This document shows positions 1 to 33,294 of a DNA stretch of 37,378 bases, in pieces (within the stretch, counting starts at the first letter, position 1; every line of letters begins with the position of its first letter). The DNA lies in IMG/VR virus record IMGVR_UViG_3300030207_001617, positions 1 to 37,378 of that record; one strand, written 5' to 3'. The position numbers and the translations under genes were made by a program. Below the pieces are notes generated by a model. That model worked only from the letters and a program-made list of their open reading frames with translations. It had not been told where the DNA came from and did no database searches. Source of the stretch: a virus (taxonomy: Duplodnaviria; Caudoviricetes).

Positions 1-265
1 CGTAGAAAGCGTTAGCTCTGTTCTCGTATCCAAACCTAGCGATTTTACGAACACCCATAGATAAGCTATAGTCAAACGGAGTTGCTATAGTTTCTTGAGT
101 TAATCCATCAGTAACAGAATATATAGTTTGATCTGACACTGAGTTACCTCCATTAACAGCCGCGTAGAATGTAGAAAACTTAAACGCTTTCTTTAACTCT
201 TGAGCTTGCAGTGTTATGCAACTAAATAGTAAGGTTAGTAATAAACTTAATCGTGGTAATAACAT
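1..265 (-). CDS. Partial (runs off left edge) secreted or outer-membrane-like protein with Sec signal peptide
   Basis: Manual translation from ATG at 265: MLLPRLSLLLTLLFSCITLQA|QELKKAFKFSTFYAAVNGGNSVSDQTIYSVTDGLTQETIATPFDYSLSMGVRKIARFGYENRANAFY, open to the window edge. Overlaps the giant gene's 3' end by 19 nt. Not in the ORF track. Confidence 0.8.
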   Translation of the reverse strand, partial: MLLPRLSLLLTLLFSCITLQAQELKKAFKFSTFYAAVNGGNSVSDQTIYSVTDGLTQETIATPFDYSLSMGVRKIARFGYENRANAFY

Positions 266-3200
266 TTTCCTGATTTATTTGTTGTTTGCATTTTACACCT
301 AACGCCACTTGCTTTGACGTGTGTGCATTGTGTTTTCTTTCCATCCGGTCGTTGTTCAACTTTTTCGTGAATAGTACAATAACTTTGACCTGGTAAAACT
401 TTTTTACCGCAGCGCTTACCAGACTTGTTTATAGCAGCACATGTAATACTCTTTTCATCTACGCCGTCTTCACGCTGTAAGTTTTGCTCTTCTATATGTT
501 CCTGTATTATAGCTTCGTTTTGAGCGTCGATTTCGGCTTGCTTCTCTATTTTCTTTTGCTCTCGCCTTTCTTCTGCTTCAACAGCTTTAATTTCTTTTAC
601 CTCATCACGAGCAGTCATAACATCTTGGTTTCGTATGCCAAAATTATATCTACTCCAACCTAAGAATATAGCTATACGTTGCCATGTTTCATTATCAGAG
701 TTTAAAGCTTCTTGTATGTTTTGATACTTATTATACATCCTGTGAAGCGGTAAATTAGTAGTAGCCTCAACAATGTTAAATAAAGCATCGTACATAGGAT
801 TATCAAGATCTGTTTTATCCATATGTTTTATAACATCTCTATTAAACTCCCACGTTTGAAGAGCACTATACATTTTTCTAGCTTTAATTCCAATTGGTGG
901 AGATAAATTAAGACCTTCTAGTAGAGTATACGCGTGGTCTGGTTCTGTATAAAACTTACCATCATCAGCTTTCTTTTCTTGCTCCATAAATTCCAGTATA
1001 GTATTCTTCACTGTTGATACAACTGCTCCGGCTATACCAGCTCCACGAAGTACACTATCCATCATACCGTTTAACAATCTAACTTTCTTGTCTTCTGTTA
1101 ATTCATCTTCCTCGTCGTCACCAAATAATGCTGCAAATAATCCTTGTTGTAACCCGTAGAATATAAGACTCTGAACCATACCATAGTATAAAATCTTTGA
1201 CCCGTGTTCCTTAGGGTCGCCTCTACCGTTAATCCAGTCTTGCGCTGCTCGCTTCATCAATCTATTATACTGCATAGGTGTATTTTGGAAAGCAAGTATC
1301 AGCTTACCAAGTGGAGAAGCTTGTTGCTGAGATATTTTATCTTCTCTAGTAGACTGCTGAGTTTCCTCAGCGATCTCTTGCATATCTAAGAACGCTTGAC
1401 TCTCTGCCTCAGCACGAGACATTCCTTTTTTCATATAAGATTTAACTCTATTTCTATAGAACATCGCTCCACCAGTAGCAATAGCCGCGCTGTCACCAAT
1501 TTGAGTTGGTGTAAAACCAACTCTAAGTAGATACGCTATAAGAGATTTCATAGGATTTTTAGAACCCTGCATTTCTTTCAATAGCTCAGCGGCGTTTAAG
1601 TCTGTACCAATACCGCCGCGTCTTTGTTTTAACCATGGTGAATTAAATATCATAGCTATATCTGCTACAAATTGAGGTAAATTTGCAACCGCACCAGCAG
1701 CTTTTAACGGGTTATTATCGTGCCAGTTAATAAAGTTCAAAATAGATAACTGCTGAAGTAATGCAGATCTTGCGTTGAAGAACATTGTTGCACCTATAGA
1801 CCCATGAACCCAATTTACGAAATTGTTCATCATCTTATTGCTACCGAAGTTTCTAGTACTTCCTGTGCGCATTCGATATAACATATCTTCTAAAGCTTCT
1901 CTAAACCTAGTACCATATACAGCTTCAATCTTGTTTAAGTTTTCTTCGTTAAATACAATATCAGAATTCTCAATAAATTCTCTTAGATATATTTCACGTG
2001 CATTTGCTAAAGCATCTGATATATCAGATTCTATAGTACCTGCTAGCCAGCTGTTATCAGGGGTTATATCTTGTTGAACTGATTGTTGCATAATACTGTT
2101 TAATCCATCAGCAAACGCTCTCAATCCTTCATCTTTTTTAACGACATCTAACAAACTATCTAAATCAGTTTGAGATAGACCTGGAACTTCTATGCCCATG
2201 CGATTCCAGTTGTATACCCTTATAGCATCTTGATATGTAAATTCCATACCAGGTATAGTTTTTCTTAGCTTTCTTTTTACTTCAGGCAAAGCGTTCTTAA
2301 GTTGCTTAACATCATTTGCCACAGCTTGTTTAACAGCGTTTAAATGACGTATTCCTTTAGAAAACGGATCAAACAAGTTTTTCTTAAACCACTCGTGATG
2401 TTGTTCTCCTATCTTGCCTTTACCAAGGAACGAATATATTAATCCCTTAAAATCTTCTGCTGAAGGCGGTAAGAAGAATTGAAACTTACCTTTATCTCTA
2501 CCTCGTTTATTAGCCTTAGCTGGAGAAAATCTTTTTTGTCTTCCTACACCCTTAGTCTCTTCTAATATAGTATTGAAGTCTCTACTTAAATCTAATTCTC
2601 CTTGCTCTAGAATTTTGCTTAATCGGTTCGCGCCTTTTCTACTAAACTCTATTTTAGCTTGTTGCGTAACACCTTTAACATCAAATCTATTTAATACATC
2701 TTGAACAGCTTCTACATTTTGCATAGCATCATCTGCAAAGTATATATCATTATATCCTTTACCAATTATATTTTCAGTGATCCAATCAGCTTTAGCTTTA
2801 CCTGTAGAATTCCCTAAACCAACTATATTTTCCGAAGGTATTCTTAAACCTATAGAATCTAAAAACTGTTTAATAGCAGGCTGTGATTCTGGAGCTCTTG
2901 CTGTTAAAATAAATGTATCTTTTGTTCCAAACTTTTTAGCTCGCTCTAAAGCTTTATCAAATAAAGGACCTGGTTTACCACCTTGAACTTTATTGAATTC
3001 AGAGAAATCAAACACATGTCCTTGATCTAGCAAGTCTTTACCTCGTTTAGCAAACTCTTCTGCGGTTAATCTACCTGTTGTACCGTCGGCAGCAGTAAAT
3101 AGTACATCAGATTCTGTTCTAGCTAATGTATCATCAAAATCCCATACACTAACACCTTTTCTACCATCAGAAGGTTTTCTTGAAAACTCTAAAGCTACAT

Positions 3201-6200
3201 TGGCAATACGGGTTTGTTCGATAGCTTCTATTTTTGGCTGTAGTATTTCAGCAACTCTAGCTCTTAAATCTGCGACATCTGATCTTTGAGCTTGCTTATC
3301 TAACTTAATAAAACCTACATTCCATTCTGGATCCTTAAGGGTTAACTCGTTAAAGTATCTAACGAAGGCATCGTCATCTAGGTTTTGTAATTCATATAAC
3401 GCTGTCTGAAGACCCCTTGCTTTCAAGACATCATCCATACGCTTAGATATTATAGACACCTTGAAGTTATTTAACATACTTGTGCTAGCTCCTTCTCCAA
3501 ATAGTTCAGCATGTACTAATCCTAGCCCAATAGCAACACGTTGCTGCATGTGTTCATATACCGCTTCGCCTGGATGAGATTTACCGTTTATTTTGTTGAA
3601 CGTGTTATTATCCTTATGCCACTGCTGTATTTTTTCAATACCTAATCCCTGCCAATTAGGTGGCAGTAAATCTTCTGATATACCTTCTAACATAGCGGCT
3701 CTACCAAGAACTGGTTGCATATTAGAAAGTAGGTTAGATACAAGCATTTGCATGTGTTTAGCACCTATTTTTTCGTTATTATATAACTCGCTATAGTGTT
3801 TTATTTGATCTACTAATATCTCACCAGCATACTCTGCGTTGGCATTACGCCTGCTTAACTCGTCAGTATTATTGAAGTAATCATGCAGCCATGCGTCTAC
3901 AGCAGATTTAGACGTTTGAGGGCTTATAAAGTCTTTAGGTTCTGCTGGTCTATAAACAACTTCACCAGCTTTATTTGTCTTTGTTCTATACTTATTTTTA
4001 CCACTAGTATATCTATCTGGTACAAGTATTTGCTCGTTGTTATATGTTATAGATGAGTAATCTATAATACCTTTGTCCGTTAGATTGAACTCAAGACCTG
4101 GTATTGATCGCCAAACTTGTTCAATATATAAAGGTCCAGTAAAATATTGATTTCTATTACCACCGATTTTAGCAGCGGTATGTAGTTGCTGACCTATAGT
4201 AACTATAAACCGCATAATCTCATAGCCCTGCTTTTGAGGATCTTTATGCTTTGTTTTTATTTTATTAACACGCTGTTGTATATAAGCAATAGCTTGAGCT
4301 TGCATCTCTGCTACATACGTACCTTTAGGATCTTTCATCTCCCACGTCATTTGACCAGTACCAAAGAAGGTTCCTAGCTTCGTGCTCTCATCTAAACTTT
4401 GTTTATAAAGCCCATCAACAATTTGTTGCTCTACTACTGGAGCTCGATCTTCTGTAATTCTACTCTGCGCCTTTACGGTATTACCCATGGCAACTTTCAT
4501 AGCAGCGTTTGCAATAATACTTATCTCCTCTTGGGTTAACGCATCTTTGTATACTTTATTAACAGCGGACTCTATAGCTGGCTTAGTAAATTTCTTTTCT
4601 TTATTTATTTTCTTACCATCTTCTATAGCTATAGCGTTTGATACTATTGCTTGAGCTAAAAGAGGCATTCTTGTATAAAAAATATTCTGAGACTCTGTAC
4701 CTAGTTTACTTATAGCTTGAGGGATAGCTGCAAAACCTGCACCAGCTGTTCTACTTCTATTTGGTTTCCTAGAAAACATCAACGCTCCTTTACCATCTCC
4801 AAGTAAAGCTATATCACGAGTTGGATTTGTTGAGTTATCAATAGCTACTTGTCTCAATGTTTGATTGGCTGTGATTACAGCTGCTTGCGTAGCAAGTGCT
4901 CTTAATGCTCCATCAAACTTTTTATTGTTTTCAAATGTACCGTCAGTGTTAATACCAAACGCAGCGTTAAACTCTTCTATGGTAATATCACCTCTCTTAT
5001 TTTGAGCATATTTTTGACCTCCTTTTGGAGCAGCGCCTTTTTTAACTTCAACCCTTGGGCCTTTTTCATAAAACTTATTAAGTAAAACTCTAGGCAAACC
5101 AACAGCCATACCACTTTGGTTTTGACCTTCAGGTAACATGTCTAATAACGCTTGCGCGTTATCCACAACAAACTGTTGAGCAGCCGTTCTTTGAGTACCA
5201 TCAAGATCTTTATTTTCAACTATCTTTTTAGTAGGTATACCAAATTCATTTGCTACTAAGTCTATAACACCTTTAAGAGGAGCATTAGGTCCTACTAAAA
5301 GTTTCTTAACACCCTTGTAAGTTAGACCAGCTATATCTATTCCAGATGTTTCTACTATAGCTCTGATCTTATTTGCTAAAGCAGGCGCTGTGTTTAGACT
5401 TGCCAAGAATATAGTTAGTCCATCAGCCCCTTCGTTCATTGATATGCCCTCATCAGGAGTAGCGTCGGTATCTGCAAGACCTTCAGCATATGTTGTACCA
5501 GTATCATCCATCGGCGCGTCAAAAGAAACGGTAGATACTGTAGTAGCGAATTCCTTTTTCACGTCTCTTATCGCGTATCTTATAGCAGCGTTTTCCATGC
5601 CAAAAGTACCAGCCAACCAACCGAATAAACTCTCGTTTTTAGCAGGATTAAATTGAGTTAGATATCTCATGCTAAGATTATCTTTAACTTTATTCATAAA
5701 CACCTGAAGCTTTCCATCCGACAAATCCAAACCTTCTTGAATAGCAACGCCTCTTATAAGGCCGTCTAACTTTGTGGTGTTTCTGATAAGCTTATATGCT
5801 TCATCCATCAAGTTAGGGTGTTGTAACAACTCTTCTTTAGTAGTTATTCTAGTACCATCAGGTTTCATTATGGTATTATCAAACTCCATTAATAAAGATG
5901 GATCTGATCTTAATAAATTATCAACAGCTCTTGAGAAAGAAACGGCTCCTTCAGTTTCACGAATATCCTTTTGAAGTTCTTTAAGAGTTACAACCTTATC
6001 TTCAGTAAGAGTTTCGCCCTTCCAGTTTGTACCGGCAGGTATTGTCAAAGATAACTCACCAGTGATACCATCTTTCTTTACAGCTGATTTTAACAAAGTT
6101 CTATTTACGTAATTCTTTTTTACGGAATCAGAATAGTTAATAAGAAATCTTTTTAAGTTCTCTTGAGTACCAAAAGAATAACCTGCACCTGTACCAGCCA

Positions 6201-9200
6201 TGCCAAGAATACGATCAACCATACCTCCAATTCTACCTAAACCTTTGCGTTTAATTTTGACGTGACCGTTTATCATAGCTTCACTGAGATTAGTCATCAT
6301 CTCCTCGCCATTTAACATACCGTCTTCATAAGATAGTATTTTACCCCAAAAGTTCATCATAGCATTTTGGTTTGTCCATTGGACATCACCGCTTTGCAAT
6401 AACTCAATCATGTTCTTAGCAAACAACTGTCTAACTACAGGGTCTTGGTGGATTGAATTATGTAATACGCTATGTAAAAACTCGTGGGCAGCGGTAGTAA
6501 AGTTACCATCTTTAAGAGCCGTATCTTTATTAATGAACAATTCGTAACCAACAACTTTGTTACCCTCTATAATAGGGAAGAATGTGCCATATTGGCCTGA
6601 TCCCTCTTGAGCTGCTGTTTCTCGTAAAATAGGAAGAATAGCATTTATATTATCTATATGACGCTGCGCATCCGCTTTCTCTTGTTCTGTTGTATCCTCA
6701 TTTTCTACTATTTCTCGATAGTATTTTATTGTGTCGCTTACAGTTTTAGGATCTAAAGCTCCTTGCTCCGCTTTTTCTCGTAAATACGTTAATAGTTTTT
6801 CTGAATCTCCTTCAAGAGTTGTTATCGCAGTTTTATTTCCAAACGCTCTCTTACTAAAGTGTTTAGCTTGCCTCTTAATATTACGCATAATCTTGTCGTA
6901 ATTATTAATAACAATGTTTGGGGTATATTGATCAAGTAACTTCTGTCGCTTGTTTTCAATTTTATTAATTTCATTCTGAAGATCTTGAAGTCGTTTTAAT
7001 TGTTCGTCATTAGGTGTTTTTCCTTTTCCAACTTCTTTCCATATTTCAGCAATCTTAAACCTTAGGTTTGATTGTTTTTTAAACCATCTGTTTAATCTCT
7101 TTTTCTCAGCAGGCTTGAAAAGTGCCATTCTTTGGGTATCGACTTCTTGAAGTTTGGCGAGTTCAACTTCCAGATCTGCTAGTTCTTGACTTATCTCATC
7201 TAGCAATTGCTTTTTCATTCTACCTTCTGGTAATGTTAAAGCATCAGCTTTTCTTTCCTCTAGTTTCTTTCTACGCGCGGCAACCGAGTCAAGCATACTC
7301 TTTGTATCAGGATGCATAAATGGAGCTATCGCGTGAGAAAACATAGGTCCTGATTTTATAGTACCAGCAACAAGTAGACCGGTTACAAAAGCCTCATCAA
7401 CACCATCAAATAAACCTACGTCTTTACCTGTTAGTATATCAAACCAATTCTCTCCAGTTCTAGCTAATGCTTCTGAAGCGCCCTCTGAAAGAAACTGGCC
7501 AGTATGCAAACCCGCGTGCTTTAAACCACTTGTACTAAAAACATTCTTAGCCATATATTTCTTAAAGCCCAATGATTTCATTTCACCCCAAGCAGCAGCT
7601 CTACCCGCGCGAGTCATACCCTTTGTTGCGTCCGCTATTATACCGTATGTAACTCTTTCTGATAAACCTTCAACTACACCGGTTCCTATAGAGGCGACGA
7701 ACATCTCGGCCATACTGTAATTGTGACCATACAAACCATCTGTTTCTCTATACAGCTCGTTTTCTTCACGCATACGCTTGTATTTAGAACCCATTGCGTT
7801 TGCACTTAAAGTACCTAAAGAAAAGTATTGAACTCCTTGCTTCGCAGTAAGTCTACCACCCATTGTTAATAGAGCTCTTGTAGTTAGTTTTCTTGAAGCC
7901 ATCCCAGCAAGCGCTGCGCTACTTATACCAGACGTAGCTAACATAAGAGCTAGCTGAGGTAATTGCTGGCCAACTGCCGTTGCTGCGAACTCACCAAAAT
8001 CACCCCAAGAATCTACCTCACTCATTCTTATAGGAGCTTGTATGTATTTATCTTTATCTTGCTTATAAGTTTCAATAGCATCTATAACTCGCCTATCGCC
8101 CCACATAGTGGTTTGGTACCAGTCCCAAATTTCTTCTTTTTCCTCTCCTTCTTCGTCTTTTTCTAACCAACCAGCCTCTTCAAAATCTGGTTCCGCTAAT
8201 TCTTCCCAACCTTTACTCATCCCTGCCATTACAAGATCTCCAACCATTCCGCCAATTTCTATAAAACCAGTAGCTAAATCAATAGCCCCGTTATAAACAG
8301 CGTTAGCGAACTTAACACCTTGTCCGACTTTATCTCCAATGACTTCTTTATACCAACCTATATCTTCAAACTCAATAGTTACGTCATCAAGTTGTTTTTC
8401 AAAGTTTTGTGCTATACCGGTATAGACCTTATGAGCATCTAAATGCGTTTTTATTTTGTCTCTAGCGGCATTATATGTGTTTCGTATACGATCCAATTCT
8501 TTGTTAGCAGCATCGACCTCTTCTTGAGTAGTGTATTTCTTACTCATGATTTCATCGATAGCATCTTCGGCTGTTTTACCGTTAAAACGTAATCTATCAA
8601 AACTAAGTATAGCTTTGTCTAAAGCTTCTCTATTACGTTCTATTTGTCTGTTTATACCTTTTACAGCTCTAACCTTTTCTTTTTGATCAGCGTCAAGTTG
8701 ATTGTATCGTACTTTAGCCTCGTCGTCTAGCTCTTGTTGAAACTCTTCTTCTGCCCACCACGCAGAACTAGAAGCGTTTAAAGTTTCCATTATATTCGCT
8801 TGACCGTCTTCTATATCTAGTTGTCTCTTTTTTGAACGAATTATAGTCTCTCTAACAGTTGGATCACTAGCATTAACGCCTTGTTTAATATCGTTAAACG
8901 ACGGTAAGTTTTCTAACAAATCAGCATACTCTGGATACTTAGAGGCAATTAAAGCACTTGGGTTATCAGACTTCATTATTTCGCGTATCATCTCTGACGA
9001 TACTCCAGGACCTAGTATACCTAATCTATCCGCCTCGGCCTGTGAACCTCTACCAGATTCTGGCGCTGCTTCTTTTATAGCTTTATCAAGTTGATCTATA
9101 AATAAGTCTTTAGACACCACGTCTATTTGCCTATCACTTATTTTATTATATTCAGCGTTTTCGCCGTTGTTGAAAAAGTATTCAGTTATTTCGTAACCTT

Positions 9201-10878
9201 TGTGCAATTTATATGTTTCCACAAAAGTATCACCTATAACAGAACTCATAGCGGCTGCAGAGTAACGATACGTGTCAGATTCAATATTTATCTCAAAACC
9301 TAGTTCTTTAGCTTGTGGAAATCTTTCATCTATATTATTAGCTATCCAAGTAAAGACTTCTTTTCGTAGTCCATCAAGATACGGGCCTGCTGGGTATTTT
9401 TCTTCGATTTGAGCCCAAGATGTAATTGGAACTCCTCTATCTGTAATGTTTAATTCTTGTACTGCTGTATTTACTATAAGATCATAGAGCTCATCTTCCT
9501 TTGCTCTATCTTCATTTATCAGTAAGTTTTTGCGCTTTTCAAACTCAGTGTGGTATTCAACGGCTTGAATTTTATTTTCATCTTGTTGATCTTGAGTAGC
9601 AACACTCATATCTATAGAACCTTTTAAAGCTGTATCATGGTCATACGCAGAGTCTTTTAACCACTGATTAAGATTATCAATTGTTTCTTGCGAGTTGCCT
9701 GCAAATAAACCAGCGTCTATCTTAAATAGTCTATTCTCCTCTCCTTCTGTTAAATTTGTATTTACAAAAGTTAGTTCTCCTACGCCAGCTTCCCAATCTC
9801 TATCTTCAATAACGATACCCATTCTAAGAAATTCATCTTTACGATTCATTAAATCTCTTAGCGCGGTGTTTTCTTTTTTCGTAAAATCTTCTTTTGTAAC
9901 TTGACCTACATTCTCAGCTCCAGATGCTTTAGCTCTATTATCTTGCTCTAGCTTTATACTTTCTCTTTCACTTAATACATTAATTAAATCACCCAGCCTT
10001 ACATCTCTTGCTATAGCTTCAGTTTTTGTCATAATGATATCAGGACCTACGTAATCTTCACCGTCTCTTTTAACTAATCGCAAGCTTTGAGCACTACCAC
10101 CTATGTATGTCCATTCCTCATTACCTATAGTAAAGTTCATGTCTTTACCCTCTACCTCTTCTATAGGTTCAGCGACATTACGGTTTTCGCTATAAAAATT
10201 TGTTTGATCTCTAGTGTTCTCGTAAATTCTCTTTTCAAGAGGATCTTGTTCTACTTCTTCTAAGCTTTGCGCTCCTGTTCTGGCAAGCTGTAGTTGGTTA
10301 TTTTGATTCTTAACCTGATCGTGTAGCGCGTTAATTTCGTCTTGAGTAGGTACGTAATCCTGGGTTGGATCACCTGAATCTAAACGATGTCTCCATTTAC
10401 TTGTAGCGTCGGGATTTTCTTTAGAAGGATCATATATTTTTTGACCTGTTTCTTCATCTATACTCCAGGCGTCTGGGTTATACCCTTGCTCTTCAAACCA
10501 CATGACCACATCTCCGTCACTATCAACATAGTTGCCCTCCGCATCTCTCGTATAGTCGCTTATATCACCAGCCCAATGATTGTTATCCCAATACTCTTGG
10601 TTTTCAGAATTAACGCCAGCTACAGCCATCTCTTCTCTAGATAACGTAGGTTCATCGTCTACCTGAATATTACCTTCTTGATCTTGTATACCGAGCGTAT
10701 TTTTCTTCCATGTCGCAAAATCACTTGAAGTAGCCCCTGTTTTAGCTAAAAATCTATATACATTTTCCTGGATACTTGGATCATTAGATATATTCGTTTT
10801 CCAAGTTGTAAACGTGCTTGAGGTTAAATCAAGCGACGTAAGATAATTCCAGATATTTTTTAGAATTTGTTCGTTCAT
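247..10878 (-). CDS. Giant (3543 aa) polyvalent virion/ejection protein: zincin peptidase, sigma-like, His-Me-finger-like, HAD phosphatase and C-terminal zinc-finger modules
   Basis: Uninterrupted ORF following the ejection-type genes. Motifs: HEFLH (aa 1465-1469), WDFDDTL/ILTAR/K/FADD (HAD motifs I-IV, aa ~2580-2720), two C-x9-C-x10-C-x2-H fingers at the C-terminus, Gly/Ala-rich hydrophobic helices at aa ~850-1180. Confidence 0.8.
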   Translation of the reverse strand: MNEQILKNIWNYLTSLDLTSSTFTTWKTNISNDPSIQENVYRFLAKTGATSSDFATWKKNTLGIQDQEGNIQVDDEPTLSREEMAVAGVNSENQEYWDNNHWAGDISDYTRDAEGNYVDSDGDVVMWFEEQGYNPDAWSIDEETGQKIYDPSKENPDATSKWRHRLDSGDPTQDYVPTQDEINALHDQVKNQNNQLQLARTGAQSLEEVEQDPLEKRIYENTRDQTNFYSENRNVAEPIEEVEGKDMNFTIGNEEWTYIGGSAQSLRLVKRDGEDYVGPDIIMTKTEAIARDVRLGDLINVLSERESIKLEQDNRAKASGAENVGQVTKEDFTKKENTALRDLMNRKDEFLRMGIVIEDRDWEAGVGELTFVNTNLTEGEENRLFKIDAGLFAGNSQETIDNLNQWLKDSAYDHDTALKGSIDMSVATQDQQDENKIQAVEYHTEFEKRKNLLINEDRAKEDELYDLIVNTAVQELNITDRGVPITSWAQIEEKYPAGPYLDGLRKEVFTWIANNIDERFPQAKELGFEINIESDTYRYSAAAMSSVIGDTFVETYKLHKGYEITEYFFNNGENAEYNKISDRQIDVVSKDLFIDQLDKAIKEAAPESGRGSQAEADRLGILGPGVSSEMIREIMKSDNPSALIASKYPEYADLLENLPSFNDIKQGVNASDPTVRETIIRSKKRQLDIEDGQANIMETLNASSSAWWAEEEFQQELDDEAKVRYNQLDADQKEKVRAVKGINRQIERNREALDKAILSFDRLRFNGKTAEDAIDEIMSKKYTTQEEVDAANKELDRIRNTYNAARDKIKTHLDAHKVYTGIAQNFEKQLDDVTIEFEDIGWYKEVIGDKVGQGVKFANAVYNGAIDLATGFIEIGGMVGDLVMAGMSKGWEELAEPDFEEAGWLEKDEEGEEKEEIWDWYQTTMWGDRRVIDAIETYKQDKDKYIQAPIRMSEVDSWGDFGEFAATAVGQQLPQLALMLATSGISSAALAGMASRKLTTRALLTMGGRLTAKQGVQYFSLGTLSANAMGSKYKRMREENELYRETDGLYGHNYSMAEMFVASIGTGVVEGLSERVTYGIIADATKGMTRAGRAAAWGEMKSLGFKKYMAKNVFSTSGLKHAGLHTGQFLSEGASEALARTGENWFDILTGKDVGLFDGVDEAFVTGLLVAGTIKSGPMFSHAIAPFMHPDTKSMLDSVAARRKKLEERKADALTLPEGRMKKQLLDEISQELADLEVELAKLQEVDTQRMALFKPAEKKRLNRWFKKQSNLRFKIAEIWKEVGKGKTPNDEQLKRLQDLQNEINKIENKRQKLLDQYTPNIVINNYDKIMRNIKRQAKHFSKRAFGNKTAITTLEGDSEKLLTYLREKAEQGALDPKTVSDTIKYYREIVENEDTTEQEKADAQRHIDNINAILPILRETAAQEGSGQYGTFFPIIEGNKVVGYELFINKDTALKDGNFTTAAHEFLHSVLHNSIHQDPVVRQLFAKNMIELLQSGDVQWTNQNAMMNFWGKILSYEDGMLNGEEMMTNLSEAMINGHVKIKRKGLGRIGGMVDRILGMAGTGAGYSFGTQENLKRFLINYSDSVKKNYVNRTLLKSAVKKDGITGELSLTIPAGTNWKGETLTEDKVVTLKELQKDIRETEGAVSFSRAVDNLLRSDPSLLMEFDNTIMKPDGTRITTKEELLQHPNLMDEAYKLIRNTTKLDGLIRGVAIQEGLDLSDGKLQVFMNKVKDNLSMRYLTQFNPAKNESLFGWLAGTFGMENAAIRYAIRDVKKEFATTVSTVSFDAPMDDTGTTYAEGLADTDATPDEGISMNEGADGLTIFLASLNTAPALANKIRAIVETSGIDIAGLTYKGVKKLLVGPNAPLKGVIDLVANEFGIPTKKIVENKDLDGTQRTAAQQFVVDNAQALLDMLPEGQNQSGMAVGLPRVLLNKFYEKGPRVEVKKGAAPKGGQKYAQNKRGDITIEEFNAAFGINTDGTFENNKKFDGALRALATQAAVITANQTLRQVAIDNSTNPTRDIALLGDGKGALMFSRKPNRSRTAGAGFAAIPQAISKLGTESQNIFYTRMPLLAQAIVSNAIAIEDGKKINKEKKFTKPAIESAVNKVYKDALTQEEISIIANAAMKVAMGNTVKAQSRITEDRAPVVEQQIVDGLYKQSLDESTKLGTFFGTGQMTWEMKDPKGTYVAEMQAQAIAYIQQRVNKIKTKHKDPQKQGYEIMRFIVTIGQQLHTAAKIGGNRNQYFTGPLYIEQVWRSIPGLEFNLTDKGIIDYSSITYNNEQILVPDRYTSGKNKYRTKTNKAGEVVYRPAEPKDFISPQTSKSAVDAWLHDYFNNTDELSRRNANAEYAGEILVDQIKHYSELYNNEKIGAKHMQMLVSNLLSNMQPVLGRAAMLEGISEDLLPPNWQGLGIEKIQQWHKDNNTFNKINGKSHPGEAVYEHMQQRVAIGLGLVHAELFGEGASTSMLNNFKVSIISKRMDDVLKARGLQTALYELQNLDDDAFVRYFNELTLKDPEWNVGFIKLDKQAQRSDVADLRARVAEILQPKIEAIEQTRIANVALEFSRKPSDGRKGVSVWDFDDTLARTESDVLFTAADGTTGRLTAEEFAKRGKDLLDQGHVFDFSEFNKVQGGKPGPLFDKALERAKKFGTKDTFILTARAPESQPAIKQFLDSIGLRIPSENIVGLGNSTGKAKADWITENIIGKGYNDIYFADDAMQNVEAVQDVLNRFDVKGVTQQAKIEFSRKGANRLSKILEQGELDLSRDFNTILEETKGVGRQKRFSPAKANKRGRDKGKFQFFLPPSAEDFKGLIYSFLGKGKIGEQHHEWFKKNLFDPFSKGIRHLNAVKQAVANDVKQLKNALPEVKRKLRKTIPGMEFTYQDAIRVYNWNRMGIEVPGLSQTDLDSLLDVVKKDEGLRAFADGLNSIMQQSVQQDITPDNSWLAGTIESDISDALANAREIYLREFIENSDIVFNEENLNKIEAVYGTRFREALEDMLYRMRTGSTRNFGSNKMMNNFVNWVHGSIGATMFFNARSALLQQLSILNFINWHDNNPLKAAGAVANLPQFVADIAMIFNSPWLKQRRGGIGTDLNAAELLKEMQGSKNPMKSLIAYLLRVGFTPTQIGDSAAIATGGAMFYRNRVKSYMKKGMSRAEAESQAFLDMQEIAEETQQSTREDKISQQQASPLGKLILAFQNTPMQYNRLMKRAAQDWINGRGDPKEHGSKILYYGMVQSLIFYGLQQGLFAALFGDDEEDELTEDKKVRLLNGMMDSVLRGAGIAGAVVSTVKNTILEFMEQEKKADDGKFYTEPDHAYTLLEGLNLSPPIGIKARKMYSALQTWEFNRDVIKHMDKTDLDNPMYDALFNIVEATTNLPLHRMYNKYQNIQEALNSDNETWQRIAIFLGWSRYNFGIRNQDVMTARDEVKEIKAVEAEERREQKKIEKQAEIDAQNEAIIQEHIEEQNLQREDGVDEKSITCAAINKSGKRCGKKVLPGQSYCTIHEKVEQRPDGKKTQCTHVKASGVRCKMQTTNKSGKCYYHD

Positions 10879-10888
10879 TTAATTAGCT

Positions 10889-12217
10889 TTAGCCCATGTT
10901 GTTGCCACCCTCTTTATCGGCAGCAAGTCCTCTCCTATTATCTCGACCTTGTTGTGTAGCATCTTCCCAGTTTTGTTTCTCAATACCAGCTATCCACTCG
11001 CTTAAATATTTTCTAGCTATCTTTGGATGGTTCTTCATTTCATTAGCTATTAAGCGCCTAGTTTCCATTATCTTATAGGTAGCCTCTTGCTGTTCTTCTA
11101 AAGACTTATATGTGCCAGTTGGTGGTTCTTTTACCAATAAACTCCATTCGTCTTCAGTTATTTGACCGTCACTAGGTTGATTAGGATCTAAAGCCTCAAG
11201 ATCTGGATTTCCTTTAATTGGTATAGGATCACCCTGCCAAACTGGATTTTCGTCAGACATAAAGTCATCTACAAATGTATTACTCTTGTGATATATTGGG
11301 TCTAAAAAATAAGTTTCAATATCACCTTCATCCATGTCAGCAGCGATATCTAACGCTCTATCATCCCAATTTGGTTCACGTACATTACCGGCAAAAGCGT
11401 TATCTCGAACTTTGTTTAAGCTTTCTTTTGAACTGGTTCTTAATTCAGATGGAGCTATACCGTCTGCAACTATTTTATCTATTTCAGCTTTTCTATATTT
11501 CTTTATATACTTACCCTCCTCGTTTTTTTCATAACCCGCAGCTTCAGCAGCTGCGTCATCTTCAAACCTACCATCTTCTGCTGTTATAGTTAAAACCATT
11601 TCTTTACCATCATCCCATTCTATACTAGGATTACCTGGCTCCATTTTAGATAAAATACCAAGATCTGTTTGGAGGTTTTTATCGTGTTTTATTTTATTAC
11701 TCCAACCTCCGCCATTACCGCCATGAACTCCAGCCGCAGTTTCCATGCTACCCTTTATAGCATTAAGTTCTGAAGCTCTAGTTTGTTGGTTTCTCAATAG
11801 CTCTGCAGCTTCTCTTTTTTTACCTTCTTTAACAAGATCTATATACTCTTGTCTATATCCTTCCTCTAAATCAATAAACTGATCATACATCTCAGGTGTA
11901 GTCCAAGTTTGTCGTTGTGCTACAGAAGTCATTCCTTCATCAAATGCTATCTCCGCTTCTTCAGTTAAGTCAGCTATCCTTTTCTCTTCCGCTTCTCTCT
12001 CTTCTTTTTTAGCCTCCTCTCTAGCGTCTTTTACAGCTAATCCTGTAGCTACGCCCATACCTACGGTAGCAGCGGCATCTCCAACCGCACCAAGAGTTTG
12101 CGCTTGATTTAATAATCGTTGAGCTTCACCTGGTCTAGGTCCAGCTTCTCTTACAGCTCTTCTAGTTGCATCTGATAATCCGTAACTTGGGGTTGTTGTT
12201 GTTGTTGTTGTAGCCAT
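10889..12217 (-). CDS. Putative internal virion/ejection protein (442 aa)
   Basis: Lies between a pilot-like gene and the giant protein. Gly/Ala hydrophobic patch (GAVGDAAATVGMGVATGLAV) followed by a charged coiled coil; N-terminal poly-Thr. Confidence 0.5.
   Translation of the reverse strand: MATTTTTTTPSYGLSDATRRAVREAGPRPGEAQRLLNQAQTLGAVGDAAATVGMGVATGLAVKDAREEAKKEEREAEEKRIADLTEEAEIAFDEGMTSVAQRQTWTTPEMYDQFIDLEEGYRQEYIDLVKEGKKREAAELLRNQQTRASELNAIKGSMETAAGVHGGNGGGWSNKIKHDKNLQTDLGILSKMEPGNPSIEWDDGKEMVLTITAEDGRFEDDAAAEAAGYEKNEEGKYIKKYRKAEIDKIVADGIAPSELRTSSKESLNKVRDNAFAGNVREPNWDDRALDIAADMDEGDIETYFLDPIYHKSNTFVDDFMSDENPVWQGDPIPIKGNPDLEALDPNQPSDGQITEDEWSLLVKEPPTGTYKSLEEQQEATYKIMETRRLIANEMKNHPKIARKYLSEWIAGIEKQNWEDATQQGRDNRRGLAADKEGGNNMG
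12190..12211. repeat. Trinucleotide (ACA)n microsatellite encoding poly-Thr at the N-terminus of the 442-aa ORF
   Basis: Plus strand reads ggttgttgttgttgttgttgt; protein begins MATTTTTTTP. Confidence 0.75.
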
Positions 12218-12226
12218 AATTATTTA

Positions 12227-12910
12227 TTAAGAAGTTTCTCGTGCTGCGTAAGCTCCTGCTGCGCTACCTAGGCCACTAGCTATATCACCCATAGCATCCA
12301 TGCTAGACTGTTGAGCTGATGCAACTAGCGCATTCGCTGCCGATACGTCACCTGCAGCTAGACCCATTAGAGCATCGACTTTATCAGCCTCCATTTGTCT
12401 AGATTTAAGTTCACCTTCGATTTCAAGATCCATAAGCCTCTGATCTTCACCAAGCTGAGTTTCTTGTATTTTAGCCGCTTCTTCTGCTGCTGCTTTTTGG
12501 TTAGCCGCTTCTTGTTCGCCAATAGTCGCCGATGCTTTCTGAGCATCTAACGCGCCTTGATTAGCCAGCGATTGAGCTAATGCTGCAATACCAGAAGATC
12601 CTGCAGCACCTTGCATTGATTGCATAATGTTAGCCTGATTCTGCATTGACTGTTGTTTTTGAAACTCTGCTTCCTGCTGGTTTACAGTGAGATCCTCCAT
12701 GGTGTTCTCCATGTTCTCGTACACATTTTGCATACCCTTATATGGATTACTTGTATCGAGTTGTTCAAAAGCAGCTTTCTGCTTATCCATCTCAACACGC
12801 GCTTTTTCAGCTTCCTTAGCAGCTTCTTTAGCGGCTTTATTGGATTTAATCATTTTAGCCACGCCTATACCGGCGCTTATAACGCCTGTTGCAACCGCTA
12901 CAAAACTCAT
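12227..12910 (-). CDS. Putative DNA ejection/pilot protein (227 aa)
   Basis: Hydrophobic Gly/Ala N-terminus (MSFVAVATGVISAGIGVAKMI), Q/A/E-rich coiled coil and Gly/Ala C-terminus, typical of podovirus ejection proteins; position after the tail genes. Confidence 0.6.
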   Translation of the reverse strand: MSFVAVATGVISAGIGVAKMIKSNKAAKEAAKEAEKARVEMDKQKAAFEQLDTSNPYKGMQNVYENMENTMEDLTVNQQEAEFQKQQSMQNQANIMQSMQGAAGSSGIAALAQSLANQGALDAQKASATIGEQEAANQKAAAEEAAKIQETQLGEDQRLMDLEIEGELKSRQMEADKVDALMGLAAGDVSAANALVASAQQSSMDAMGDIASGLGSAAGAYAARETS

Positions 12911-12913
12911 AAT

Positions 12914-13411
12914 TTATTTATTTTTAATATATTCTTCATACTCTTCGTAAGTTAAAGCAACTATGTCTTTTTCTAATTGATCGATATCTTCAGTGTTGCT
13001 TGGGTTTTTATGTGTGTTGTACCACACTGAATCTTCATGAGCATACAATACTCGTTTAATACCTGGCGTAGATACAATAAAACATGGCGCTATATGATCT
13101 ACAGTTTCTTCTTCGTTACTAACAGTAATTTTACCTTTAAGCAAAAAGCACATGTGTAAGTGTTTGTGTATAGCGCCAATAACTATAGTGTCCTTAAACA
13201 TCGTCATCTCTCTCACATAGACCCCATCCATAAAAAAATGTCTGATAGGTACTAGTTTACTGTCGTTTACTATTGGCTTTTCTTTAGTACCAGCCACGAT
13301 ATTAACGCCGTCTGCTAATTCTTTTAGATTATTTTCTAAAGAAACTACAGCAGTTCTAAAGTCTTTGGATAACTCAGATTTAGATTTTTTTTGTAACTTG
13401 TTATCAGTCAT
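12914..13411 (-). CDS. Cupin-fold protein (165 aa)
   Basis: HFFMDGVYVREM...GAIHKHLHMCFLLKGKITV...PGIKRVLYAHEDSVWYNTH matches the double-stranded beta-helix pattern with an HxH metal site. Confidence 0.65.
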   Translation of the reverse strand: MTDNKLQKKSKSELSKDFRTAVVSLENNLKELADGVNIVAGTKEKPIVNDSKLVPIRHFFMDGVYVREMTMFKDTIVIGAIHKHLHMCFLLKGKITVSNEEETVDHIAPCFIVSTPGIKRVLYAHEDSVWYNTHKNPSNTEDIDQLEKDIVALTYEEYEEYIKNK

Positions 13412-32484: not shown

Positions 32485-32759
32485 TATTTAGATCTACCCT
32501 CAGCAAAACCCTTGAATACTCTTTTCTTTTCTTCTTCCGGTGCTTTACCCTCTAAAAGATTTTCTTCTTCTTGGATTCTGTTTAATATCTCGAATGCGTC
32601 GAAGATAGCAAGCTTCTTTGTAGCAGCGGCATTTTTAAGTCTATCAGCCGATATATCGTCATCTGAATCAACAATAGCTTCTTTAGCCACCTTGATTAAT
32701 TCCTCAACCGCTCTGTGCCCAGCTTGGATTATACTCTTCTTCGTCTCCTTGATATTCAT
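32484..32759 (-). CDS. Small helical protein upstream of TerL, candidate terminase small subunit (about 91 aa; likely start MNIKETKK)
   Basis: Coupled to terL (TAATG overlap at 32484); helical and charged. The function call rests on position only. Confidence 0.45.
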   Translation of the reverse strand: MNIKETKKSIIQAGHRAVEELIKVAKEAIVDSDDDISADRLKNAAATKKLAIFDAFEILNRIQEEENLLEGKAPEEEKKRVFKGFAEGRSK

Positions 32760-33294
32760 ATTTAATTGTAATAAATTGAGATGGTATTCTATATAATCTT
32801 TTACCATCAATAACAAACTCACACTCTGTTTTAGGTCTAAAGCCTATAAGAGAGTTTAGCTCTGCTCTGCCATCAGTATGTTTAACAATACCAACTAAAG
32901 GTTTTTCTGTATCAACACTTAGTTTGCTATTGTCCTTAATAGGTTGTACAAAGCAATAACCCTTAGGACATATCCATGTATCGTCACGCTTGTACAAAAA
33001 TATCTGATCATCGTTTACAAAGTATTTATTTTCTTCGTAATATGATCTACTATTACGCTCTCTACCTTTTACATCATGCCAACGTCTAAATACGTTAAAG
33101 TGAACTATAACAGTATCACCGACTTGTATCTCTGTATCACTTATCCTTGGTACGGATATAACCTTAGCTAGTCGATTGACGTGATGATGGTTAAATACGT
33201 CTGTATTAAGTATTAACTCTTTATCACCTACTTTTGTTGTATTGTTGTATCTTGCACCTATAGGCTCTACAACAAAGTTGTAAAGCGATTGCAT
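32704..33294 (-). CDS. Tandem GroES-like (two Cpn10-fold repeats) protein (196 aa)
   Basis: Repeat 1: NFVVEP...LAKVISVP...IQVGDTVIVH. Repeat 2: YCFVQP...LVGIVKH...LIGF...EFVIDGKRLYRIPSQFI. Both follow the GroES strand pattern. Confidence 0.55.
   Translation of the reverse strand: MQSLYNFVVEPIGARYNNTTKVGDKELILNTDVFNHHHVNRLAKVISVPRISDTEIQVGDTVIVHFNVFRRWHDVKGRERNSRSYYEENKYFVNDDQIFLYKRDDTWICPKGYCFVQPIKDNSKLSVDTEKPLVGIVKHTDGRAELNSLIGFRPKTECEFVIDGKRLYRIPSQFITIKYEYQGDEEEYNPSWAQSG

What the first reader, a model, noticed from the sequence alone, without database searches (positions are those of the whole stretch)
2638..6486. Candidate self-cleaving virion polyprotein: FSR(K) motifs at module boundaries downstream of a cis zincin protease
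Seen: the tripeptide FSR occurs four times by my reading, all C-terminal to the HEFLH motif (aa 1465): AVSFSRAV (F1648, nt 5929-5937), ALMFSRKP (F2035, 4768-4776), ALEFSRKP (F2565, 3178-3186) and KIEFSRKG (F2745, 2638-2646). The codons differ (TTC TCA AGA; TTT TCT AGG; TTT TCA AGA; TTT AGT AGA), so this is a protein-level signal and not a DNA repeat. Sites 3 and 4 tightly bracket a 180-aa HAD domain. Sites 1-2 bracket a sigma-like module and sites 2-3 a nuclease-like module. Established: phage and plasmid polyvalent proteins often carry zincin-like metallopeptidases proposed to process them. Inference: this protein is packaged, injected, and cut at FSR into products of about 387, 530, 180 and 800 aa, giving a modular early-effector delivery cassette.
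Basis: partly seen in the sequence, partly recalled or inferred. Interest (0 to 1): 0.9.

Follow-up and report, generated by a model that had tools for sequence, protein, structure and literature searches.

The report
Co-evolving cut tags in phage polyprotein
A 3,543-residue protein of an uncultured phage carries the same short tag at all four joints between the modules that follow its zinc-protease-like domain, and relatives rewrite that tag at their joints together, so the tags are likely "cut here" signals that the built-in protease would read to free the modules after they enter the host cell.

Summary
Observation confirmed; FSR four times is only borderline alone, but relatives make it real. 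The ORF (247-10878, minus) ends the virion gene block of an Elemovirus/Pervagoviridae-like phage. In 120 homologues, [FY]S sits at the same four joints (52/59, 73/75, 57/96, 104/119; background 8%). All four sites fall at predicted inter-domain confidence minima. Modules inserted between domains are tagged (13/13); insertions inside the HAD domain are not (0/31). Divergent relatives switch tags in concert (FSE, FSQ, SQD, SENP, FKR, SNKS, LRSK), without DNA homogenisation. Tag similarity tracks the protease 1,100+ residues away more than the adjacent HAD domain (partial r 0.20 vs 0.02). Best reading: cis zincin recognition sites (0.65); no cut is shown and timing is unknown. Protease processing of polyvalent proteins was proposed in 2017; my searches found no paper naming the sites. 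This scan noted similar tags in at least seven other genomes. Cultured phage elemo gp18 has a homologous protease and candidate tags, so the idea can be tested.

The parts
247..10878 (-). 3543-aa giant protein, last gene of the virion block; likely ejected cargo
   Evidence: same position as giant 'structural protein' genes of cultured elemo, phi38:1 and phi13:2
7309..7971 (-). Gly/Ala-rich hydrophobic segment (aa ~970-1190), candidate membrane/ejection part. No tags lie upstream of the protease
   Evidence: hydropathy peak at aa 976; a profile of the stretch 330-170 aa upstream of HExxH matches all four GenBank giants tested, E 5e-17 to 4e-7
6079..6591 (-). Zincin-like metallopeptidase domain (aa ~1430-1600): strands, HEFLH helix (6472-6486), Glu helix with E1526 (6301-6303)
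   Evidence: H1465, E1466, H1469 and E1526 invariant in 26/26; secondary structure; ESM Atlas neighbours are LPD23/LPD1/ART-PolyVal/MuF_C clusters, top score 0.96
5929..5937 (-). Tag J1, FSR (F1648)
   Evidence: end of pLDDT<50 stretch 271-311 of model 1; 52/59 homologues
4789..5928 (-). Module A (aa 1651-2030): sigma region-2-like helical domain plus an unassigned domain
   Evidence: VIA Z 6.5, rmsd 3.2, 90 aligned; most of the top 25 rows are sigma factors; Z under 8, so a lead only
4768..4776 (-). Tag J2, FSR (F2035)
   Evidence: inside pLDDT<50 coil 689-714; 73/75
3199..4767 (-). Module B (aa 2038-2560): fast-diverging, conserved EH(M) motif at 2442-2443; possibly a His-Me nuclease (motif recalled, not confirmed)
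   Evidence: E2442/H2443 at least 90% conserved; no Pfam or Atlas match
3178..3186 (-). Tag J3, FSR (F2565)
   Evidence: local pLDDT minimum at the end of a helix; 57/96
2653..3177 (-). HAD phosphatase, Pnkp 3'-phosphatase-like (D2580, D2582, T2659, K2696, D2716-D2717 invariant)
   Evidence: VIA Z 12.4, rmsd 2.6, 129 aligned to 5uj0; phrog_415 E 1e-4
2638..2646 (-). Tag J4, FSR (F2745)
   Evidence: inside pLDDT<50 coil 503-522; 104/119
619..2637 (-). Conserved helical C-terminal module (aa 2748-3420), no family match
   Evidence: 3661 homologues at E<=0.001 among 7981 candidates scored
250..453 (-). C-terminal Cys/His zinc-finger pair (aa ~3476-3543)
   Evidence: conserved Cys/His; sub-threshold zinc-finger Pfam hits
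10889..12217 (-). 442-aa upstream ORF with hydrophobic N-terminal stretch; candidate ejection protein; no tag
   Evidence: role inferred from position
12227..12910 (-). 227-aa upstream ORF with hydrophobic N-terminus; candidate ejection protein; no tag
   Evidence: role inferred from position

Best explanation
The four FSR sites are copies of one junction tag that marks the borders of the modules downstream of a zincin domain, and they are likely the recognition sites at which that built-in protease would cut the protein into separate pieces. Shown: the tags, their place at domain borders, their conservation, their concerted change and their absence elsewhere. Inferred steps: (1) the protein is packed in the head and ejected with the two upstream ORFs; (2) its N-terminal ~1650 aa (186 kDa, hydrophobic segment plus protease) stays whole at the membrane; (3) the protease, most likely once refolded in the cytoplasm, cuts at the tags and frees pieces of 387, 530, 180 and 798 aa (42, 60, 20, 91 kDa); (4) new modules enter by recombination that duplicates ~25 aa of junction, so they arrive with a tag; (5) when protease specificity drifts, selection retunes every tag. 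The scissile bond is unknown. F/S (Ser, the most persistent residue, as the new N-terminus) is my guess; x/F is the alternative.
For: Conservation at anchored joints. Motif-blind BLAST breakpoints lie within 10 aa of a tag in 24% of 974 clusters vs 5% at random. All four sites lie at pLDDT minima. 13/13 proteins with an insert between HAD and C module have a profile hit (score >=8) at both ends, four of them displaced by 17-35 aa; about 4 insert types by inspection. 0/31 inserts nested inside the HAD domain carry a hit (score >=9). Concerted change: a protein's own J4 probe fits its J1, J2 and J3 windows better than other proteins' probes (n=34 at <65% identity: z 4.8, 7.8, 8.9; against the nearest relative 28:6, 22:11, 25:8); three control windows are null. 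L020 and L048 carry nearly the same insert, flanked FSE/FSE in L020 and FSK/FSK in L048, matching each protein's other tags. Not DNA conversion: identical codons 359/655 vs 339.5 expected; Ser TCN/AGY block shared 85/176 vs 92.9. Tag similarity tracks protease similarity (81 proteins: partial r 0.20, p 0.0025; distant pairs only 0.16, p 0.01-0.015), not the adjacent HAD (0.02); a control 9-mer tracks HAD instead. With hand-picked patterns in 23 loci: 0 hits in 20,161 aa upstream of HExxH and 3 in 71,218 aa of other ORFs. phi38:1 gp101 and phi13:2 gp127 keep the N-terminal part but have no HExxH and no match to the protease, HAD or module A profiles.
Against: No cleavage data. The protease correlation is modest; the C-module start correlates about as well for J4 (partial 0.16-0.18); Mantel p-values ignore shared ancestry. 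P0057 and P0065 have 86% identical proteases but FSK vs FSQ; P0064 and P0071 have 19% identical proteases but the same J4. Some relatives with an intact HExxH lack a tag at one or more joints (P0097, P0110, L051, L076), and J3 was missed in 39/96, partly through anchor offset. No family model names the zincin. N4 vRNAP has a HExxH domain yet is packaged uncut (PMC5512222) and is modelled as staying tethered after ejection (PMC13434306).
Confidence: 0.65

Rival explanations
1. The tags are read by something other than the cis zincin: a separate phage or host protease, or a packaging/ejection factor that binds each linker without cutting. The zincin acts on a host target or on peptidoglycan.
For: Concerted change shows one reader, not which one. 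Uncut zincin-bearing N4 vRNAP. A peptidoglycan role was suggested for phi14:2 gp65 and phi24B gp47. Protease swaps without a tag change.
Against: Tags are almost absent from other ORFs nearby (3 in 71,218 aa) and absent upstream of the protease, unlike the sites of a general head protease (recalled). Covariation is with the protease and not with the upstream region or module A. A host reader would have to change between close phages. Only 72% of this genome is held.
Confidence: 0.17
2. The tags are footprints of recombination: modules are swapped through short homologous junction DNA, and the peptide is a by-product.
For: Inserts after the HAD duplicate ~25 aa of junction (L020, L048, P0078, P0018). 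Domains recombine freely (inter-domain r 0.06-0.42).
Against: No excess of identical codons, and Ser codons mix TCN and AGY. Inserts inside the HAD need no tag. The same insert has different tags in different proteins. This explains how tags spread, not why they are kept.
Confidence: 0.07
3. The tag is a structural element (helix cap, or linker docking on the protein's own body) of an uncut multidomain protein.
For: J1 and J3 abut helix ends in the models. The HAD is tightly linked to the C module in almost all relatives.
Against: Flanks are unrelated between joints, yet tags change together to chemically different words (FSE, FKR, SENP). The sites are predicted with low confidence.
Confidence: 0.11

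Closest known systems
Phage-type polyvalent proteins with zincin-like MPTase (Iyer et al. 2017, PMC5512222)
   Same: Giant multi-domain protein beside virion genes, embedded HExxH+E zincin, unrelated enzyme domains; autoproteolysis and the polyprotein analogy were proposed there.
   Different: No Pfam LPD/MPTase model matches this protein. The passages and two sections I read name no cleavage sites, tags or tag-protease covariation ('linker' 0, 'processing site' 0 occurrences). Its FTP supplements were not seen.
Crassvirales cargo proteins (phi14:2 gp65-67; crAss001 gp45-50)
   Same: Crass-like muzzle (PF25729, E 2e-5, below the curated cut-off), giant ejected cargo, zincin proposed to process a fused polyprotein.
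   Different: No RNA polymerase match here. Terminase and capsid are closer to Elemovirus, Pervagoviridae and Pachyviridae.
Elemovirus gp18 (YP_010108995), Callevirus phi38:1 gp101, Baltivirus phi13:2 gp127
   Same: Same gene position and homologous N-terminal part; elemo gp18 also has a homologous zincin (E 2e-10) and R[FQM]Q[AK] at +140, +536 and +759 from HExxH (68, 92).
   Different: Different cargo; C-terminal homology not detected; gp101 and gp127 lack the protease.
MARTX toxins (PMC2900308)
   Same: An embedded protease cuts at several inter-domain sites after translocation and frees the effectors (passages).
   Different: Cysteine protease, InsP6-activated, secreted bacterial toxin; no homology implied. 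A works-like analogy only.
Coliphage N4 vRNAP gp50 (PMC13434306)
   Same: ~3500-aa ejected protein with a HExxH domain, encoded with two smaller ejection proteins.
   Different: Reported packaged unprocessed; RNAP cargo; serves as the counter-example.

Membership tests
Phage-type polyvalent proteins (Iyer 2017) | Large protein joining several biochemically unrelated domains | tested here: met
   zincin, sigma2-like, HAD, zinc fingers; P-loop kinases and other inserts in relatives
Phage-type polyvalent proteins (Iyer 2017) | Encoded among late/virion genes of a terminase-portal phage | tested here: met
Phage-type polyvalent proteins (Iyer 2017) | Carries named LPD/PolyVal domains | tested here: inconclusive
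   no Pfam hit in the query; LPD14 E 0.003, below cut-off, in P0078; Atlas neighbours carry LPD23 in 18-20% of members
Phage-type polyvalent proteins (Iyer 2017) | Packaged and delivered at infection | not testable with these tools
   cultured positional homologues are annotated 'structural protein'
Zincin-like metallopeptidase (MPTase) | HExxH helix plus downstream Glu on a second helix | tested here: met
   invariant H1465, E1466, H1469, E1526 (29); helices 123-134 and 185-197 in model
Zincin-like metallopeptidase (MPTase) | Three-stranded sheet / zincin fold match | tested here: inconclusive
   two long strands precede the HExxH helix (43); not among the hits of the 747-aa model; the domain was not folded alone
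Zincin-like metallopeptidase (MPTase) | Zn-dependent proteolysis | not testable with these tools
   needs an assay
HAD superfamily, Pnkp-like phosphatase | DxD, T/S, K, DD motifs on a Rossmannoid fold | tested here: met
Crassvirales virion RNAP polyprotein | Multisubunit-type RNAP catalytic domain | tested here: inconclusive
   no Pfam/PHROG RNAP match; DFDDT here belongs to the HAD fold; N- and C-terminal regions were not folded

The most novel reading that the evidence does not exclude
These phages carry a large family of self-processing delivery proteins in which each lineage's zincin has its own short recognition word (FSR, FSE, FSQ, SQD, SENP, FKR, SNKS, LRSK...), all sites co-evolve with it, and new effector modules plug in by duplicating the junction: a protease-and-tag code readable from sequence alone, giving hundreds of natural site-specific proteases with predicted substrates and automatic borders for unknown phage effectors.
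Probability: 0.45. Interest if true: 0.85.

Novelty: new variant of a known kind. Interest (0 to 1): 0.68.

Why it matters
Self-processing of phage polyvalent proteins has stood as a prediction since 2017 with, as far as my searches reach, no sites named. Here the sites are given to the residue, with natural variants for swap tests and a cultured phage (elemo) that has a candidate version. If true, bacterial viruses use polyprotein processing for injected cargo, tags delimit the effectors in thousands of unannotated giant genes, and the proteases form a set of distinct specificities.

Tried and rejected
Complex prediction of the protease domain + Zn with the J2 linker: no answer, score 0.00; neither for nor against. 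Foldseek of both multi-domain models: no E<=0.001 match; the zincin and module B got no fold match, but were not folded alone. PDB profile search: only coiled-coil noise. Atlas search of module B: weak, not recognised. tblastn of the protease and C module against cultured phages: no match; the elemo link came from family profiles. Search for shorter, split or protease-less forms: none among 7993 candidates scored, uninformative. Single-sequence viral scans gave 0 and 1 loci. hhalign of the C module to four GenBank giants: no support. The protease tree (quick method, 30 of 78 inner branches open) was used only to view the spread of tags. The 68 elemo records are >=99% identical over the cargo stretch, so they offer no variation. 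Rejected: FSR as the family-wide motif; DNA repeat or gene conversion; tags as general head-maturation sites.
Full report
Observation. Alone this is weak: 117 of 200 shuffles contain some tripeptide as extreme, 11 of 200 some 4-mer as extreme as FSRK x3.

Context. The window is a 72%-complete linear virus record with terminase, portal, virion proteins, a crass-like muzzle and holin. Terminase and the 506-aa virion protein match Elemovirus (47%, 40%), Callevirus and Baltivirus phages of flavobacteria. All share the order muzzle, small ORFs, ~200 aa, ~450-550 aa, giant. A Bacteroidota host and a role as ejected cargo are inferred from this, by analogy with crAss001 and N4 (passages).

Data set. 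A C-module search found 3661 homologues among 7981 candidates scored; the best 120 were retrieved. IMG/VR gave 81 loci. Of 202 proteins, 183 had protease, HAD and anchors; 19 were dropped as fragments or for lacking an anchor. Tests used dereplicated sets of 81, 34 or 8 proteins, and 51 genes for codons.

The tag marks module borders. [FY]S occurs at anchor-predicted joints in 52/59, 73/75, 57/96 and 104/119 cases against 7.6% background; flanks differ between joints, while the core is F90/Y9, S, K51/R25/Q8 (S is fixed by the search). S2566 and S2746 are invariant and S1649 and S2036 at least 90% conserved in a 26-protein alignment. BLAST breakpoints, found without the motif, cluster at tags (24% vs 5% within 10 aa). 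AlphaFold2 on 25-row alignments puts J1, J2 and J4 in stretches below pLDDT 50 and J3 at a local minimum of 54. Thirteen of 13 proteins with an extra module between HAD and C module have tags on both sides; none of 31 inserts inside the HAD cap, 19 of them a P-loop kinase-length insert of ~200 aa, has one. Tags therefore mark units that can part, not every recombination point.

The tag changes in concert. Divergent relatives use other words at their joints: FSE (L020), FSQ (P0022, P0011), SQD (L003), S[EQ]NP (L050), FKR (L072), SNKS (L066), SKSI (L022), LRSK (L057), NSES (L062). A protein's own J4 fits its other joints better than foreign J4s, also against its nearest relative; three control windows show nothing. 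L020 and L048 share a near-identical insert, flanked by FSE twice in one and FSK twice in the other. Codons show no homogenisation (359/655 identical vs 339.5 expected, z 1.7; this gene 12/28 vs 12.3). One protein-level reader per phage is the simplest account.

Which reader. The domains recombine (inter-domain r 0.06-0.42), which allows a test. J4 similarity follows the protease, over 1,100 aa away (partial r 0.20, p 0.0025), and the adjacent C start (0.16), but not HAD, module A or the upstream region. J4-to-J3 similarity follows the protease best (0.20 vs 0.09). Both hold among distant pairs (0.16), and a control peptide follows HAD. The effect is modest and the p-values ignore ancestry. 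Tags are absent upstream of the protease and nearly absent from neighbouring ORFs (patterns were chosen from the tagged region, so only the absences count). Two cultured relatives without HExxH also show no match to the cargo profiles. Against: a near-identical protease pair with FSK vs FSQ, a very different pair with the same J4, and relatives that lost single tags.

Modules. HAD: Pnkp 3'-phosphatase-like with intact motifs (Z 12.4); a role in RNA or DNA end repair is inferred. Module A begins with a sigma region-2-like fold (Z 6.5), a lead for early transcription control. Module B and the C module are unassigned.

Mechanism. Likely: packaged whole, threaded out behind two smaller ejection proteins, N-terminal 1648 aa anchored, zincin refolds and cuts at the four tags, giving 387, 530, 180 and 798 aa pieces. 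Cutting inside the head is the main variant. New modules come with a duplicated ~25-aa junction. Confidence 0.65; rivals are another reader (0.17), a structural linker (0.11) and a recombination footprint (0.07).

Prior knowledge. PMC5512222 (passages; sections 33, 34) proposes MPTase processing, cites processed P1 DdrB and unprocessed N4 vRNAP, and names no sites in what I read; its supplements were not seen. Also read as passages: 10.1101/2020.03.07.982082, PMC10172136, PMC13434306, 10.64898/2026.04.10.717836, PMC8776804, PMC2900308. Searches (listings) found no paper describing such tags; the library lacks most subscription papers. Seven earlier notes of this scan describe similar tags in other genomes; they are unchecked, agree with my reading, and are not used as evidence.

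Verdict. A real, conserved, co-evolving junction code in a polyvalent-type virion protein; most likely self-cleavage sites; not shown. New variant of a known kind; interest 0.68.

Noticed in passing
L083:18719-29803 (elemo gp18, aa 1683, 2079, 2302): Cultured Flavobacterium phage elemo has a homologous zincin (E 2e-10) followed by R[FQM]Q[AK] three times at module-like spacing (0.24 expected; pattern hand-picked). A ready test system.
   Followed up: partly
P0018, P0047, P0071, L033, L064, L065, L075, L076 and others (HAD cap): A P-loop kinase (AAA_33/Zeta_toxin Pfam labels) is nested inside the HAD phosphatase, making a Pnkp-like kinase-phosphatase by insertion; other 65-135 aa inserts use the same spot (31 of 183 in all).
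   Followed up: partly
L020, L048, P0078, P0018, P0056: Modules inserted after the HAD are flanked by a duplicated ~25-aa junction, like a target-site duplication at protein level.
   Followed up: partly
P0064 vs P0071; P0060 vs P0065: HAD and C modules 92-98% identical while the proteases are ~20% identical: recent exchange of the N-terminal half.
   Followed up: partly
P0090, P0104, L079, L001: No HAD match; in P0090 and P0104 module A is followed by a ~120-130 aa piece bracketed by ENMYSQE and ENMFSEE/DIMLSEE.
   Followed up: no
L082:741-12320 (MW202828 giant, 3859 aa): Two HExxH motifs (1615, 2500) and no clear repeated tag; annotated 'reticulocyte binding/rhoptry protein', which looks spurious.
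   Followed up: no
window 12914-13411: 165-aa ORF matching PHROGs 'short tail fiber/adhesin' (E 7e-33) but with a His-rich cupin-like look (recalled, untested), between muzzle-side genes and the candidate ejection proteins.
   Followed up: no
window 32704-33294: GroES-like co-chaperonin (phrog_13932) upstream of the terminase, as in elemo.
   Followed up: no
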